DNA of 64,000 nucleotides, from positions 182,094,001 through 182,158,000 of the forward strand of contig OZ024741.1 in NCBI GenBank assembly GCA_964016885.1. The letters run 5' to 3'. Origin of the DNA: Eledone cirrhosa (taxonomy: Eukaryota). Shown one piece after another: positions 8,880 to 62,453 of the stretch; within the stretch, counting starts at the first letter, position 1, and each line of letters begins with the position of its first letter. The notes beneath the pieces are model-generated. The model did not search any database, was not told the DNA's origin, and saw nothing but the letters and a program-made list of their open reading frames with translations. The position numbers and the translations under genes were made by a program.

Positions 8880-11800
8880 CAGCAGCAATAGCAACAGTAA
8901 GTACAATAAGAAGAACAACAATTTCAGCAATAGCAACAATAAGTACAGTAAGAATAACAACACCTTCAGCAATAGCAACAATAAGTACAGCAAGACAACA
9001 ACAACTTTAGCAACAGTAAGTACAGTAAGAACAACTTCAGCAATAGCAACAGTAAGCACAGTAAGACAACAACAGTAAGTACAGCAATAGCAACAGTAAG
9101 TACAGTAAGACAACAACAACTTCAGCAATAGCAACAGTAAGTACAGTAAGAATAACTACTTCAGCAATAGCAACAGTAAGTACAGTAAGAATAACAACAA
9201 CTTCAGCAATAGCAACAGTAAGTACAGTAAGAATAACAACAACTTCAGCAATAGCAACAGTAAGTACAGTAAGAATAACAACAACTTCAGCAATAGCAAC
9301 AGTAAGTACAGTAAGAATAACAACAACTTCAGCAATAGCAACAGTAAGTACAGTAAGAATAATAACACCTTCAGCAATAGCAACAGTAAGTACAGTAAGA
9401 CAAAAAAAACTTCAGCAATATCAACAGTAAGTACAGTAAGAACAACTTCAGCAATAGCAACAGTATGTACAGTAAGACAACAACAACTTCAGCAATAGCA
9501 ACAGTAAGTACAGTAAGAATAATAACTTCACCAATAGCAACAGTATGTACAGTAAGACAACAACAACTTCAGCAATAGCAACAGTAAGTACAGTAAGAAT
9601 AATAACAACTTCAGCAATAGCAACAGTAAGTATAGTAAGAATAACAACAACTTCAGCAATAGCAACAGTAAGTAAAGTAAGAATAACAACAACTTCAGCA
9701 ATAGCAACAGTAAGTAAAGTAAGAATAACAACAACTTCAGCAATAGCAACAGTAAGTACAGTAAGAATAACAACAACTTCAGCAATAGCAACAGTAAGTA
9801 CAGTAAGACAACCACAACTTCAGCAATAGCAACAGTAAGTACAGTAAGAATAACAACAACTTCAGCAATAGCAACAGTAAGTACAGTAAGACAACAACAA
9901 CTTCAGCAATAGCAACAGTAAGTACAGTAAGACAACAACAACTTCAGCAATAGCAACAGTAAGTACAGTAAGACAACAACTTCAGCAATAGCAACAGTAA
10001 GTAGAGTAAGAACAACAACAACTTCAGCAATAGCAACAGTAAGTACAGTAAGAATAACAACAACTTCAGCAATAGCAACAGTAAGTACAGTAAGACAACC
10101 ACAACTTCAGCAATAGCAACAGTAAGTACAGTAAGAATAACAACAACTTCAGCAATAGCAACAGTAAGTACAGTAAGACAACAACAACTTCAGCAATAGC
10201 AACAGTAAGTACAGTAAGAATAACAACAACTTCAGCAATAGCAACAGTAAGTACAGTAAGAATAACAACAACTTCAGCAATAGCAACAGTAAGTACAGTA
10301 AGAATAACAACAACTTCAGCAATAGCAACAGTAAGTACAGTAAGAATAACAACAACTTCAGCAATAGCAACAGTAAGTACAGTAAGAATAACAACAACTT
10401 CAGCAATAGCAACAGTAAGTACAGTAAGAATAACAACAACTTCAGCAATAGCAACAGTAAGTACAGTAAGAATAACAACAACTTCAGCAATAGCAACAGT
10501 AAGTACAGTAAGAATAACAACAACTTCAGCAATAGCAACAGTAAGTACAGTAAGAATAACAACAACTTCAGCAATAGCAACAGTAAGTACAGTAAGAATA
10601 ACAACAACTTCAGCAATAGCAACAGTAAGTACAGTAAGAATAACAACAACTTCAGCAATAGCAACAGTAAGTACAGTAAGAATAACAACAACTTCAGCAA
10701 TAGCAACAGTAAGTACAGTAAGAATAACAACAACTTCAGCAATAGCAACAGTAAGTACAGTAAGAATAACAACAACTTCAGCAATAGCAACAGTAAGTAC
10801 AGTAAGAATAACAACAACTTCTGCAATAGCAACAGTAAGTACAGTAAGTATAACAACAACTTCAGCAATAGCAACAGTAAGTAAAGTAAGAATAACAACA
10901 ACTTCAGCAATAGCAACAGTAAGTACAGTAAGAATAACAACTTCAGCAATAGCAACAGTAAGTACAGTAAGAATAACAACAACTTCTGCAATAGCAACAG
11001 TAAGTACAGTAAGTATAACAACAACTTCAGCAATAGCAACAGTAAGTAAAGTAAGAATAACAACAACTTCAGCAATAGCAACAGTAAGTACAGTAAGAAT
11101 AACAACAACTTCAGCAATAGCAACAGTAAGTAAAGTAAGAATAACAACAACTTCAGCAATAGCAACAGTAAGTAAAGTAAGAATAACAACAACTTCAGCA
11201 ATAGCAACAGTAAGTACAGTAAGAACAACAACAATTTTAGCAATAGCAACAGTAAGTACAGTAAGACAACAGCAACTTCAGCAATAGCAACAGTAAGTAC
11301 AGTAAGACAACAACAACTTCAGCAATAGCAACAGTAAGTACAGTAAGACAACAACAACAACTTCAGCAATAGCAACAGTAAGTACAGTAAGAACAACAAC
11401 AACTTCAGCAATAGCAACAGTAAGTACAGTAAGAATAACAACAACTTCAGCAATAGCAACAGTAAGTACAGTAAGAACAACAACAACTTCAGCAATAGCA
11501 ACAATAAGTACAGTAAGACAACAACAACTTCAGCAATAGCAACAGTAAGTACAGTAAGAATAACAACACCTTCAGCAATAGCAACAGTAAGTACAGTAAG
11601 AACAACAACAACTTCAGCAATAGCAACAGTAAGTACAGTAAGAATAACAACAACTTCAGCAATAGCAACAGTAAGTACAGTAAGAACAACAACAACTTCA
11701 GCAATAGCAACAGTAAGTACAGTAAGACAACAACAACTTCAGCAATAGCAACAGTAAGTACAGTAAGAACAACAACAACTTCAGCAATAGCAACAGTAAG

Positions 11801-12000
11801 TACAGTAAGAATAACAACACCTTCAGCAATAGCAACAGTAAGTACAGTAAGACAACAACAACTTCAGCAATAGCAACAGTAAGTACAGTAAGAACAACAA
11901 CAACTTCAGCAATAGCAACAGTAAGTACAGTAAGAACAACAACAACTTCAGCAATAGCAACAGTAAGTACAGTAAGAACAACAACAACTTCAGCAACAAC
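8880..12000. repeat. 42-bp minisatellite, about 3.1 kb (roughly 75 units)
   Basis: Unit cttcagcaatagcaacagtaagtacagtaagaataacaacaa, with 41-bp and 38-39-bp variants. Confidence 0.97.
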
Positions 12001-12059: not shown

Positions 12060-15380
<3,321 letters not shown>

Positions 15381-57493: not shown

Positions 57494-57543
<50 letters not shown>

Positions 57544-58202
57544 CACACTTACAGTCGAATACGTGAGAACTTCAAACATCACTGGTGACAACTCGCTATA
57601 TTATACTAAAAGAAGAGAAAGAAATAAAGAAATATATAGAAATATATATTTTTGTAAATAAGACAATAGAACCGTGTGGAAATGGAAGCACCAATTGAAA
57701 CATAAGTTTTAAATCTCCGAAGCCGTTTATGAAAGTATTGAAGAAGACAAGAAAACACACTTCGATCTTCCGACGTGGAAGAGGCTCCAATCAGAAGAAA
57801 AATGAGTATAAATCCTGGAAAACTGTAAGTCCGGTATTGGAAAAAAAAAAAAAAAAATTCACAAGGGATTGACACTCCAAATCCACTATTTTCCTTTTAC
57901 TTTGCTCCACTTTTCAAATTAAATGACACGACGGTTCAGTTATATTCAAATATTGTAAGCGCGTCCATTGAGAATATTGTCTTTGACAAACTGCTCAGTT
58001 GCTCGCATGTGTGCGTGCTGAATTCTGGGTCTTTCCGCTGGGAACAACCCCTTGTTGCCCCCCACCCCTCCTTTTTTTTTTTTTAATGTACATCCATCCA
58101 TTCACTCATTCATTTACTGCCATTCTACCTTCCTGTGTCTCCCCATCCATGCAGCCCCTTTTCGCTCTCGATTTCTAGAACCTCCATATATATAGGTGAG
58201 CT

Positions 58203-61200
58203 ATGCTGCCCTCTTACCAGCACTTTCCCTTCCAACCACACACACCTAACCCTAACCCTAACCCTAACCCTAACCCTAACCCTAACCCTAACCCTAACCC
58301 TAACCCTAACCCTAACCCTAACCCACCCCTGATGCCGCTCGGTGCCCCAGTCCCCGGGCCCACGCCCCATCCCCCACCCCTCCAAATCAACACCTGCAGC
58401 ACTTGCGGCACTACTAACAAACGGAAGAGGGGCCGGAACTGTTTGGGGTGCGGCTGCTTCGACCACCTCACCTGCGTTGGCTTGACTCGTCGAGCTTCCA
58501 ATGCCTTCGCAGTGTGGAGGTGCAGGAGCTGCCTCTTCCCCACGTCTTCCCAGCCACGGCCGTCTGGCACACCACCAGATGGGACAGCGAGCTTGCCTGA
58601 CGCCCGAGCCTCGCTGGTCAACATCGCTCGGCTCAGGCGGCTCCGGAAGATCCCACTCAGGATCCCGAGAGCGGCACGGGTGCTGGCGGCCGATGCCCTC
58701 GCTTCCTCGATTGAGACCGCCCTGGACTCCAATCGAGCCAGTGACTGGGAGCGGCTGTTCTATTTCGCGCCACTCGCCCTCAGCCTCCCCACCTCTGGCA
58801 GCAGCCTTCGCCAAGGCTAATGTCTCGTCATTTGGGCGAGCGCCCATTCCAGGCCTGCCCAGGGACGCCACACACCACACCCTCAGGTACCCCCTATCCT
58901 CCACCCCCGAGGCCAGCGCCAAGCGTTTACGTGACCAGGTAAACGCAAAGCTTATCATGGGTGATGTCTCGGCCGCAGTCAGAGTTGTTGCCTCAGAGGA
59001 CACTGTCCTCCAAACCACCGAGGAGATCCTGGCTGCTCTGCGGCTCAAACACCCTGAGCCACCCTCTGATCTCAGACCCATACCCCCACCCGGCCCCACC
59101 TGCTCCTTGTGGCTACTGATGCAGATATCATGTCCGCCATCAGGTCCTTCCCAGCTAGAATGCGGAGGTGTTGATGGTCTCCGACCAGGCCACCTCAAGG
59201 AGTTGACAAATTCCCTCTGAGGCCGGGCGCCGCCTTCTGAGTGCAATTGTGGCGCTCACCAATAGGCTCATTCATCGTGCCCTCGACCCTTACGCCCGAG
59301 GCCTCGTTTTTTCGGCCAGCCTCACCGCTCTCAGGAAGAAATAGGGTGGCATACGCCCCATTGCTGTGGGCAATGTCTTCCGGAGGCTGGCTGCCAAGGT
59401 GATTTGCAAGTCCGTGACAAATGAACTGGGTGAGGAGTTTAGTCCGGTGCAACTGGGTGTCGGCGTGTCCGGTGGCTGTGAGGGAGCCTCTCATGCAATC
59501 AGGCAGTTCTTCAGCAGCTGCCCATCGGTACCGGTATCCAGGGACTCCAGGCACCTCATTGTCAAGCTTGACATGAGGAATGCCTTCAACTCTTTACGCC
59601 GGGATCATCTGCCCGAGGCCTGCCTCAGCCGAGCCCCCTCTTCCTACTCGCTGGCCTACCTGTCATATGGAGCCCCGAGCATGCTCCTAGCTGCTGATAC
59701 GGTCATACCCTCGGCTACTGGGGTCCAACAGGGCGACCCTTTGGGACCCCTCCTGTTCGCCCTTGGTATTGACCACATCGCCCGGAGTATCACGGCCCCT
59801 CTCAACGTTTGGTATCTGGATGATGCTACGTTGGGCGGGCCCGTACGGACGGTCTGCCAAGACCTTCAATCGGTGATTCCTGCCCTGGCGGGAATCGGCC
59901 TCCAGGTCAACTCGGCCAAGTCGGAGTTAGTGAACGTCAGCCTCGATGCTGTGAGCTTTGCAGCCTCCGTCTTGGACGTGCGGTCCATTCTCCACCAGGT
60001 TTAGGTGACCCCCAAAGAGGATGTCCTCATCCTCGGGTCACCGATCCACCCGCCGGCCGTCCGCTCCACCATCAGGTCCAGGCTTCAACAGCTTCAGACT
60101 CTCACGAGCCGACTGGGCTTGATTGACGGTCACCCAGCTCTCTTTCTGCTGAAGAACTGCTTCGCCATGCCGAAGCTCCTCTATACACTCCGCAGCGCTC
60201 CATGCTGCACCCAGACATGTCTCCTCGCTGACCTCCATACTTGTATCCGAGCAGCAGTCGAGGGGATATGCAACGTCAAGTTTGACGTCATAGGGTGGCA
60301 ACAGGCCACTTTACCGATCAGGTATGGCGGCCTAGGCCTCCGGTCCCCGATCTCACTAGCTTTGCCGGCGTATCTTTCGTCGGTAACCTCGTGCCGCGTC
60401 CTTGTCAGCAAGGTTCTTCAAAACAACAGAACCCTCTGTATTCAGAGAACGTGAGGCCGCCTGTGAGACGTGGGACCGGCGGGGACTTAGCCCAGTAGAT
60501 GTCCCTCCACCTTCTTCCACTGTTGACGTCAAGTCCCCCCAAGATGCGATCCAGTGCAGCCTGGCCTCAGACAGGCTCACGCGCCAGCTCGACCAGCACC
60601 GCCTTGCTTGTTTTCGTGCGGCCTCCAAACCCCACAGTGGTACGTGGCTCCATGCTCTGCCCTCCTTCTCCACTGGCACGCAGCTAGACAACCATAGCCT
60701 GCGAATTGGCGTTTCCCTGAGGCTCGGCCACACCAATGTCGCTGCGGTTCCACCGTGGACTCTTTCGGCCTCCACCCGCTTTCCTGTCGCCACAGTGCCG
60801 GCTGCCATCCACGCCATACTGCCCTCGACGAGGTCATTAAGCATGGCTTGGACGCTGCAGGCTTCCCTACCCAGCTCGAGCCGGTGGGGCTGGATCGAGG
60901 GGACGGCAAAAGACCAAATGGCATGACCATCTACCCGTTCCGCGGTGGCAAACCCCTCGACTGGGATGCCACTTGCACCGACACTTTCTGCAGCTGCAAC
61001 CTGGTGCAGTCTGCGACTGACCCAGGTTCTGCTGCACGTCGGTCTGAGGGGGCCAAACTCCTCAAATACCGGTCGCTCTCCGACAGGTTTGCGGTCGTTC
61101 CCCTGGCAGTGGAAACTTCTGGTGTCCTCGGCCCCAGAGCTACCTCCTTACTCACCACCATAGTCGCTGAGCTGGCCAGCCGTAGGTGTGCGCCCCGCGA

Positions 61201-61312
61201 GTTGGAGTGGCTTTTCCAGCGCGTCTCCCTTGCCGTCCTCGGGGAAACGCCTTCTCCATTCTGTCCGCCGGGGCTGTGGGTGGGCCCCATCGCGTACCAT
61301 TACATTAGTTAA
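58203..61312 (+). pseudogene. Disrupted single ORF of the CRE-like retrotransposon
   Basis: ORF-track pieces 58203-58820, 58501-59220, 59366-60004, 60005-60454, 60402-60926 and 60755-61312 join into one PHD-RT-RLE polyprotein. Confidence 0.85.
58245..58322. repeat. Interstitial telomeric repeat (CCCTAA)13
   Basis: 13 perfect cctaac units, the complement of the TTAGGG telomere repeat. Confidence 0.97.
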
Positions 61313-61347
61313 ATACCATTCTTTCATCTCACACACTTATATATACA

Positions 61348-62202: not shown

Positions 62203-62251
<49 letters not shown>

Positions 62252-62255
<4 letters not shown>

Positions 62256-62453
62256 AACAAGTATGACCCCGACGGCAGAGCTCAAGCCGTTTCGACGGCT
62301 AATTCTGAACTCGCGTCCAGAATTAGCCGTCGAAACGGCTTGAGCTCTGCCGTCGGGGTCATACTTGTTCCTATTACCCACTCTACTACCCTAAGTATTG
62401 AGTATTCTGTCGCGTTATGGTCCATCTGGTTCCTTACCACATTTCCTTCGTTA
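62252..62453 (+). mobile_element. Family B element with inverted terminal duplication
   Basis: Palindrome centred on ctgaactcgcgtccag; same body; in (TA)n. Confidence 0.85.

What the first reader, a model, noticed from the sequence alone, without database searches (positions are those of the whole stretch)
58100..61335. CRE-like retrotransposon led by a perfect (CCCTAA)13 telomeric tract
Seen: 13 perfect telomeric units lie at the 5' end on the sense strand, in frame after the ATG at 58203 (poly-PN) and just before a second ATG at 58332, although the ORF itself has many lesions. The 3' flank is TA, not telomeric. Known: fungal MoTeR and Cnl1 are CRE-related RLE elements associated with telomeric repeats. 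Inference: a telomere-associated RLE family in an animal with TTAGGG telomeres, an element carrying its own telomere seed, or telomerase-type healing at this site.
Basis: partly seen in the sequence, partly recalled or inferred. Interest (0 to 1): 0.8.

Follow-up and report, generated by a model that had tools for sequence, protein, structure and literature searches.

The report
Telomere-repeat scar inside dead retrotransposon
A 74-base run of telomere repeats sits inside one broken copy of a scattered retrotransposon, while the family's other copies lack it, so it is likely an ordinary DNA-break repair scar left by telomerase and not a telomere-seeking element.

Summary
The tract is real but belongs to this copy alone. 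Of 47 distinct copies that cover the site, only the window's carries telomeric repeats. Genome-wide, 111 copies match the empty site exactly and 1 matches the tract junction. Here 74 bp of perfect repeat (58247-58320) replace 4 bp (AGCC). The host bases are in register on both sides (4 nt at the G-strand 3' end, 2 nt on the other side). The tract is not at the 5' end: the element starts at 57567, about 680 bp upstream. The poly-PN frame is an accident of the +70 bp change. The family is a dispersed CRE-like RT-RLE element (at least 205 copies) with no sign of telomere association in this assembly; the tract lies 182 Mb from the nearer contig end. The genome has terminal TTAGGG arrays, a TERT-like exon, and other short tracts in unrelated repeats. 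Best reading: a short interstitial telomeric sequence, likely added by telomerase during break repair. This class is known in mammals, including inside repeats; the invertebrate setting is mildly new. Tree placement against CRE, MoTeR and Cnl1 and polymorphism were not resolved.

The parts
57567..61331 (+). One decayed copy of a dispersed single-ORF RT-RLE (CRE-like) non-LTR retrotransposon
   Evidence: 5' limit shared with other copies at 57567; 3' limit about 61331; 2.8% from the family majority state
57542..57551 (+). Candidate left target-site duplication CACACACTTA, followed by 15 nt (57552-57566) that match no other copy examined
   Evidence: read from sequence and flanks; low-complexity and repeated nearby, so tentative
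61330..61339 (+). Candidate right target-site duplication CACACACTTA, then a (TA)n microsatellite
   Evidence: sequence; tentative
57795..57800 (+). Junction of a copy-specific deletion of about 190 bp or more in the 5' region, between two A-rich stretches
58203..58205 (+). Upstream ATG. In the family it opens a 19-codon ORF that ends at TGATG; here the +70 bp change puts it in frame with the main ORF
58245..58246 (+). Host CC in register with the repeat (2-nt microhomology, far junction)
58247..58320 (-). Inserted 74 bp of perfect telomeric repeat (TTAGGG on the minus strand) replacing the host's 4 bp AGCC: a short interstitial telomeric sequence
58321..58324 (-). Host ACCC (GGGT on the minus strand) in register with the repeat: 4-nt match at the G-strand 3' end, the inferred telomerase priming site
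   Evidence: 4 nt or more in register at a random phase occurs at 0.35% of positions of this element
58330..58334 (+). TGATG: overlapping stop of the family's upstream ORF and start of the main ORF
58395..58532 (+). PHD-like Cys/His region at the N-terminus of the main ORF
   Evidence: Pfam PF00628 E=0.018, below the curated cut-off; PF00628 also on several homologs
59345..59932 (+). Reverse transcriptase domain remnant
   Evidence: Pfam RVT_1 E=3.5e-12
60737..60967 (+). CCHC knuckle plus restriction-like endonuclease motif; catalytic PD reads PN in this copy (PD in 21 of 24 copies read)

Best explanation
One already-inserted copy of a dispersed CRE-like retrotransposon carries 74 bp of perfect telomere repeat in place of 4 host bases, and the repeat was likely added by telomerase during repair of a germline double-strand break. 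Shown: the insertion is private to this copy; 4 bp are lost; the host bases are in register at both junctions; TTAGGG is this genome's terminal repeat; a TERT-like exon is present; similar short tracts occur in unrelated repeats. Inferred steps: (1) a break exposed a 3' end reading GGGT on the minus strand; (2) these 4 nt paired with the telomerase RNA template and about 12 repeats were added; (3) instead of becoming a telomere, the extended end was rejoined to the other end through the GG microhomology, with loss of 4 bp; (4) the scar drifted neutrally, possibly changing length by slippage. The tract has no role in the element's mobility. The copy is frameshifted and its endonuclease motif is mutated, so the poly-PN frame is incidental.
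For: Private insertion: 1 of 47 distinct places; 111 exact empty sites against 1 tract junction. Jump from zero to 13 units: the empty site holds no full repeat unit. 4-nt in-register 3' end: 0.35% at random phase; 2.1% of positions offer such a seed in any phase. Small deletion plus in-register bases is the commonest signature of mammalian short ITSs, and ITSs inside repeats were defined there from the repeat consensus (PMC2246262 Tables 1 and 4; PMC7215372 Tables 5 and 6). Terminal CCCTAA arrays at 5 of 20 contig starts. TERT_C match over the Pfam cut-off on C27. Other short perfect tracts in unrelated hosts, one starting at the same GGGT register in a different repeat (L144) and one at a GTTAGG seed (L061).
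Against: In-register microhomology is also expected if a telomeric DNA or cDNA fragment was captured by microhomology-mediated joining; no telomerase-RNA-derived flank proves the enzyme. The order of events (element first, tract later) is not shown: 74 bp without a change has probability 0.13 at the copy's own divergence, which does not exclude equal age. No read or second assembly confirmed the tract (searches did not cover this copy's own junctions). PF12009 found no TERT RNA-binding domain, though nothing rang in the controls either. It is a single event; the other tracts were a small hand-picked set, and only 2 had a usable empty-site comparison at the G-strand 3' junction.
Confidence: 0.62

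Rival explanations
1. A fragment of telomeric DNA, or a cDNA of telomeric RNA, was captured or template-copied into the break by end joining, without telomerase acting at the site.
For: Microhomology at both junctions (4 and 2 nt) suits microhomology-mediated capture. The genome holds abundant donor sequence: 41,132 matches to (TTAGGG)8, including large interstitial blocks. PMC7215372 names retrotranscribed telomeric RNA as an alternative.
Against: The tract has no variant units and no co-captured flank, whereas the interstitial blocks seen are interrupted by variants. The longer match lies at the G-strand 3' end, where telomerase would prime.
Confidence: 0.2
2. Telomerase extended the 3' end of the element's own nascent first-strand cDNA while this copy was being inserted, and reverse transcription then resumed 4 nt further on.
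For: The G-rich strand is the element's antisense strand, which is the strand a first-strand cDNA would be, and its 3' end at the junction is GGGT. Equal age of tract and copy is not excluded (P=0.13). The copy has another 5' discontinuity and 15 unmatched nt at its 5' end.
Against: The orientation has a 1-in-2 chance under any break model. Similar tracts occur in non-coding repeats and unique DNA. No precedent came up in one full-text search. The tract is purer than the copy.
Confidence: 0.07
3. Local mutations created one CCTAAC unit, which then expanded by replication slippage like an ordinary microsatellite in a microsatellite-rich genome.
For: The window has 135 tandem-repeat rows; the site is C/A-rich; L061 grew at a pre-existing GTTAGG seed.
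Against: The empty site CC-AGCC-ACCC needs several changes to give even one unit. None of 46 other copies shows an intermediate with a telomeric unit.
Confidence: 0.05
4. The tract is an assembly or consensus artefact.
For: No read support could be obtained.
Against: Both junctions are precise, collinear and in register, with only 4 bp missing; a mis-join would not be expected to give that (inference).
Confidence: 0.04
5. This is a telomere-associated RLE family like MoTeR or Cnl1, or an element carrying its own telomere seed.
For: CRE-like architecture in a TTAGGG genome. Telomeres are incompletely assembled (5 of 20 starts reach an array), so telomere-embedded copies could be missing. L007 has a degenerate telomere-like stretch about 780 bp upstream of its 5' match.
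Against: The tract is absent from 46 of 47 places and internal, not terminal. 0 genome-wide 3' junctions run into repeats. 0 of 30 unselected 3' ends have a repeat dimer downstream. 1 of 100 listed copies lies within 1 Mb of a contig end, against 0.97 expected.
Confidence: 0.02

Closest known systems
Short interstitial telomeric sequences (s-ITS) of primates, rodents and equids (PMC2246262, PMC7215372; passages read)
   Same: Sudden appearance of a short perfect TTAGGG run at an internal site, a small deletion at the break, 1-6 host nt in register at the G-strand 3' end, and the empty site defined from paralogous repeat copies.
   Different: The host here appears to be an invertebrate (likely a cephalopod; inferred from named homologs and a recalled SINE motif). 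No telomerase-RNA fragment; no orthologous empty allele available; no polymorphism data.
CRE-clade non-LTR retrotransposons (CRE1/2, SLACS, CZAR; CRE types reported in cephalopod genomes, PMC10294476 passage)
   Same: Single ORF with RT followed by CCHC and a PD-(D/E)XK-type endonuclease; 39% identity over 416 aa to a barnacle protein automatically named 'Retrotransposable element SLACS protein'.
   Different: Dispersed, with no common target in the flanks seen; N-terminal PHD-like finger; RHT/RHA instead of RHD/N in the endonuclease motif; no tree against named members.
MoTeR, FoTeR and Cnl1 telomere-associated fungal elements (PMC12857005, bioRxiv 10.1101/845669; passages read)
   Same: RT-RLE architecture; telomeric repeats next to element sequence in this one copy.
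   Different: FoTeR and MoTeR copies sit in telomeres, with repeats at their junctions in every copy. Here the repeats are internal, in one copy, 182 Mb from the nearer contig end, and the element ends are non-telomeric.
De novo telomere addition (chromosome healing)
   Same: Priming from a short in-register seed (GGGT).
   Different: The chromosome continues collinearly beyond the tract, so the end was rejoined rather than capped.

Membership tests
short ITS | Short run of the host's telomeric repeat at an internal site | tested here: met
   80-bp perfect run; TTAGGG terminal at 5 of 20 contig starts; 182 and 234 Mb from the ends of C2
short ITS | Appears in one step relative to an empty ancestral site | tested here: met
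   46 of 47 places empty, no intermediates; 111 exact empty sites. The empty site comes from paralogs, not orthologs.
short ITS | End-joining signature (small deletion, addition or duplication) and in-register bases | tested here: met
   4-bp deletion; 4 nt and 2 nt in register
short ITS | Direct proof of telomerase action (e.g. co-inserted telomerase-RNA sequence) | not testable with these tools
   No extra sequence was inserted and the host telomerase RNA was not identified; only a TERT_C exon was found
MoTeR/FoTeR/Cnl1-type telomere-associated elements | Telomeric repeats at element junctions across copies | tested here: not met
MoTeR/FoTeR/Cnl1-type telomere-associated elements | Copies located at chromosome ends | tested here: not met
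   0 of 100 listed copies within 0.1 Mb and 1 within 1 Mb of a contig end, 0.97 expected; many contig ends do not reach telomeres
CRE clade | Single ORF, RT followed by C-terminal CCHC and restriction-like endonuclease | tested here: met
   930-aa open frame in copy L002 with RVT_1 and the motif
CRE clade | SLACS/CRE endonuclease motif as printed in PMC12857005 (RHD/N ... R/KPD ... D/E) | tested here: inconclusive
   Strict pattern matched neither this family nor any of 84 long proteins tested; a loosened pattern matched this family and 81 of 84
CRE clade | RT groups with CRE1/SLACS/MoTeR/Cnl1 in a phylogeny | not testable with these tools
   No named reference protein came back; only an automatic SLACS name on a 39% homolog and weak hits to L1 and R2
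CRE clade | Target-site duplication | tested here: inconclusive
   Candidate 10-bp duplication in low-complexity flanks of this copy only; other copies not tested

The most novel reading that the evidence does not exclude
Telomerase hijacked a retrotransposition intermediate: it extended the GGGT 3' end of the element's paused first-strand cDNA by about 12 repeats, and the element's reverse transcriptase then resumed, fixing a two-enzyme chimera in the germline.
Probability: 0.07. Interest if true: 0.6.

Novelty: new member of a known kind. Interest (0 to 1): 0.2.

Why it matters
As it stands it is a small, clean example. Short telomeric insertions at repaired breaks were characterised in mammals and only hypothesised for all telomerase-using species (PMC7215372 introduction). 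This genome shows the same signature, with the empty site fixed by more than 100 paralogs. It suggests a cheap way to test the telomerase-at-breaks model outside vertebrates: use high-copy repeats as built-in ancestral alleles. It does not reveal a telomere-targeting CRE family in an animal, which was the exciting claim.

Tried and rejected
Telomere-associated family and self-carried seed: rejected. Functional poly-PN leader: rejected; the frame arises from the +70 bp change, three other copies (L007, L015, L026) reach the same frame through their own indels, and the copy is broken downstream. Read support and polymorphism: no result. The four indexed runs held 0.35-0.41 of the words, about what family-shared words alone would give. 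They showed no depth over this copy's 5' junction and no joint across its deletion. No telomeric loose end was listed at a paralogous site, but 142 rows were not shown and human-like records are filtered. RT tree against named CRE, MoTeR and Cnl1: not built, because no reference sequence came from any tool. PF12009 search was uninformative. A full census of short ITSs was not possible: listings stop at 100 places and are swamped by large blocks. Of 11 fetched regions plus L061, eight were analysed before the script stopped: 2 were parts of degenerate blocks and 6 were isolated tracts; L149-L152 were not analysed as candidates. Starnes 2012 (PMC3374306) is not held. Earlier-findings look-ups returned nothing. 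No supplements were read; the ITS tables and RT alignments in them could bear on the comparisons.

Full report
Observation. A perfect array of 13.3 CCTAAC units lies at 58245-58324. It contains 12 whole CCCTAA units, or 13 in the TAACCC phase, and is far beyond chance (11 dimers against 0 in 100 shuffles). It reads as poly-PN from ATG 58203 and precedes ATG 58332. Downstream are RT (RVT_1 E=3.5e-12) and a CCHC/RLE motif, broken over several frames. The window is G000:C2:182.09-182.16 Mb of a 416-Mb contig.

The tract is private to this copy. A DNA search of the genome scored 40 of 5,482 candidates and returned copies that match query 1-167 and 242 onward with a 4-bp gap; a second search with the 5' part did the same. 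At the site, other copies read CACACC-AGCC-ACCCACCCCTGATG. The 60 loci fetched are 52 distinct places; 47 cover the left side of the site and 5 are truncated. Only the window's copy has a telomeric unit there. 40 have the intact CCAGCCA and 6 have small unrelated changes. Exact pattern counts over the whole assembly give 111 empty sites and 1 right-hand tract junction, this one. The left-junction pattern hit this locus and 8 other places. Five of these lie in a telomeric block on C2, and one (C24) is an isolated tract in non-family sequence. The two on C14 and C18 were fetched but not analysed.

Anatomy of the insertion. 74 bp (58247-58320) replace AGCC. On the minus strand the host's GGGT runs straight into TAGGG..., 4 nt in register, and the tract ends in TTA before the host's GG, 2 nt in register. 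In this element, 4 nt or more in register at a random phase occurs at 0.35% of positions and 2 nt or more at 7.3%; 2.1% of positions offer a 4-nt seed in some phase. The net change of +70 bp turns a 59-nt ATG-to-ATG distance into 129. In the family the upstream ATG opens an 18-19-codon ORF that ends at TGATG: 33 of 45 rows in which the ATG was found, of 60 rows with duplicates included. The poly-PN fusion is therefore incidental.

The element. Its 5' end is at 57567, where several copies begin after unrelated flanks, though some extend further upstream. The tract is thus about 680 bp inside. This copy also lacks about 190 bp or more at 57795-57800. The family has at least 205 exact 3'-motif matches. 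Pairwise distances among 30 copies have a median of 6.3%, the tree is star-like, and the window copy is 2.8% from the majority state with 8 deletions. Its RLE PD reads PN, against PD in 21 of 24 copies read. Copy L002 keeps a 930-aa open frame. Its homologs (680 of 8,000 candidates scored, best 120 listed) are 37-56% identical. The named ones come from Octopus sinensis, a barnacle, moths and a tardigrade, with a cuttlefish protein at the top of the short-protein search. A barnacle cluster member automatically named 'Retrotransposable element SLACS protein' aligns at 39% over 416 aa. L1 and R2 structures match only weakly. CRE types are reported in cephalopod genomes (PMC10294476, passage). 'CRE-like' is reasonable; membership is not shown by a tree. 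The strict SLACS/CRE motif of PMC12857005 matched none of 84 long proteins tested, nor this family; a loosened motif matched 81 of 84. That the host is a cephalopod is my inference, partly from a recalled SINE motif.

No telomere association. No 3' end runs into telomeric repeats within 12 nt in either orientation (exact matches only). Of 30 3' ends taken in genome order on C1, none has a repeat dimer downstream. One has a single unit within 200 bp, and two near-identical loci have one dimer 648 bp upstream. L007 has a degenerate telomere-like stretch about 780 bp upstream of its 5' match. Of 100 listed copies (of 111), 0 lie within 0.1 Mb, 1 within 1 Mb (0.97 expected) and 2 within 5 Mb (4.85 expected) of a contig end. 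One limit applies: only 5 of 20 contig starts reach a telomere array, so telomere-embedded copies could be unassembled. FoTeR and MoTeR, by contrast, have telomeric repeats at their junctions and sit in telomeres (PMC12857005 and bioRxiv 10.1101/845669, passages).

Context for the mechanism. TTAGGG is the terminal repeat. A TERT_C match over the Pfam cut-off occurs three times on C27; PF12009 gave nothing, nor did its controls. Six other isolated perfect tracts of 4.7-9.3 units were seen in unrelated hosts. L144 starts at the same GGGT register in a different repeat, with an unrelated right flank. L061 lies at a GTTAGG seed of a SINE-like repeat with 1 bp lost. L148 is flanked by TGTGT on both sides. 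L143 and L147 gave no clean empty site, and L142 had no paralog. This set is small and hand-picked. In mammals, deletion is the commonest modification at such insertions, about three quarters have in-register bases, and some were defined from repeat consensus sequences (PMC2246262 passages and tables; PMC7215372 abstract, introduction and passages; review PMC6410037 passages).

Mechanism. Shown: a private, one-step replacement with in-register junctions in a genome with TTAGGG telomeres. Inferred: a germline break, telomerase priming on GGGT, addition of about 12 repeats, and rejoining through GG (0.62). Capture of a telomeric fragment explains the junctions almost as well (0.2). Because the G-rich strand is the element's first-strand cDNA, telomerase action during retrotransposition is not excluded (0.07). 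Zero changes in 74 bp has probability 0.13 at the copy's divergence, which only mildly favours a later date. Public runs did not cover this copy's own junctions, so artefact and polymorphism remain untested.

Novelty. This is a new member of a known kind. Searches for interstitial telomeric sequence with octopus or with invertebrate and mollusc terms listed no study of short-ITS junctions in a cephalopod; I saw only the listings for most of these hits. A six-term search for telomerase acting in target-primed reverse transcription returned 0 papers. The library lacks most subscription journals. PMC4640811, PMC10088271 and PMC3636483 were read as passages for clade background. Interest 0.2.

Noticed in passing
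G000 C1:217.8-218.1 Mb, C2:242.3-243.5 Mb, C3:184.6 Mb: Large interstitial TTAGGG-rich blocks lie near the middle of contigs of 379-443 Mb, while the other contigs seen are 135 Mb or less. They may be scars of end-to-end chromosome fusions or pericentromeric blocks. C4 was not reached in the listings.
   Followed up: no
L183-L185 (C27:13.14, 14.25, 14.73 Mb): The same TERT C-terminal exon occurs three times within 1.6 Mb, in both orientations: a telomerase gene triplication or an assembly duplication.
   Followed up: partly
window 58203-58205 and 58330-58334; family copies: The family has a 19-codon upstream ORF whose stop overlaps the main start (TGATG). This resembles stop-start translational coupling described for SART1 (recalled, not checked).
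   Followed up: partly
L013, L021, L036, L040, L041 5' regions: The element's 5' region carries zero to three copies of a SINE-like segment at one position, so its length varies by several hundred bases between copies.
   Followed up: partly
3' ends of L002/L013/L016, L005/L008/L011, L018/L019/L022, L010/L178/L179: Groups of copies share different 15-50 nt 3' extensions, suggesting 3' transductions from different source copies; there is no uniform poly-A tail.
   Followed up: no
window 62251-62374: 60-bp arms, 98% complementary, 4 nt apart; part of a MITE-like repeat family with relatives near 13084, 35042, 42860 and 57400. The same family hosts the short telomeric tract in L144.
   Followed up: partly
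window 8883-11996: A 42-bp minisatellite of 75 copies, 94% identical.
   Followed up: no
P0022, P0026, P0073, P0107, P0087: Several CRE-like homologs carry a ubiquitin C-terminal hydrolase or Ulp1-type protease domain fused to the RT protein.
   Followed up: no
L148 (C24:5.09 Mb), L061 (C1:3.23 Mb), L142, L143, L147: Other isolated perfect telomeric tracts; L148 has TGTGT on both sides, a possible 5-bp duplication.
   Followed up: partly
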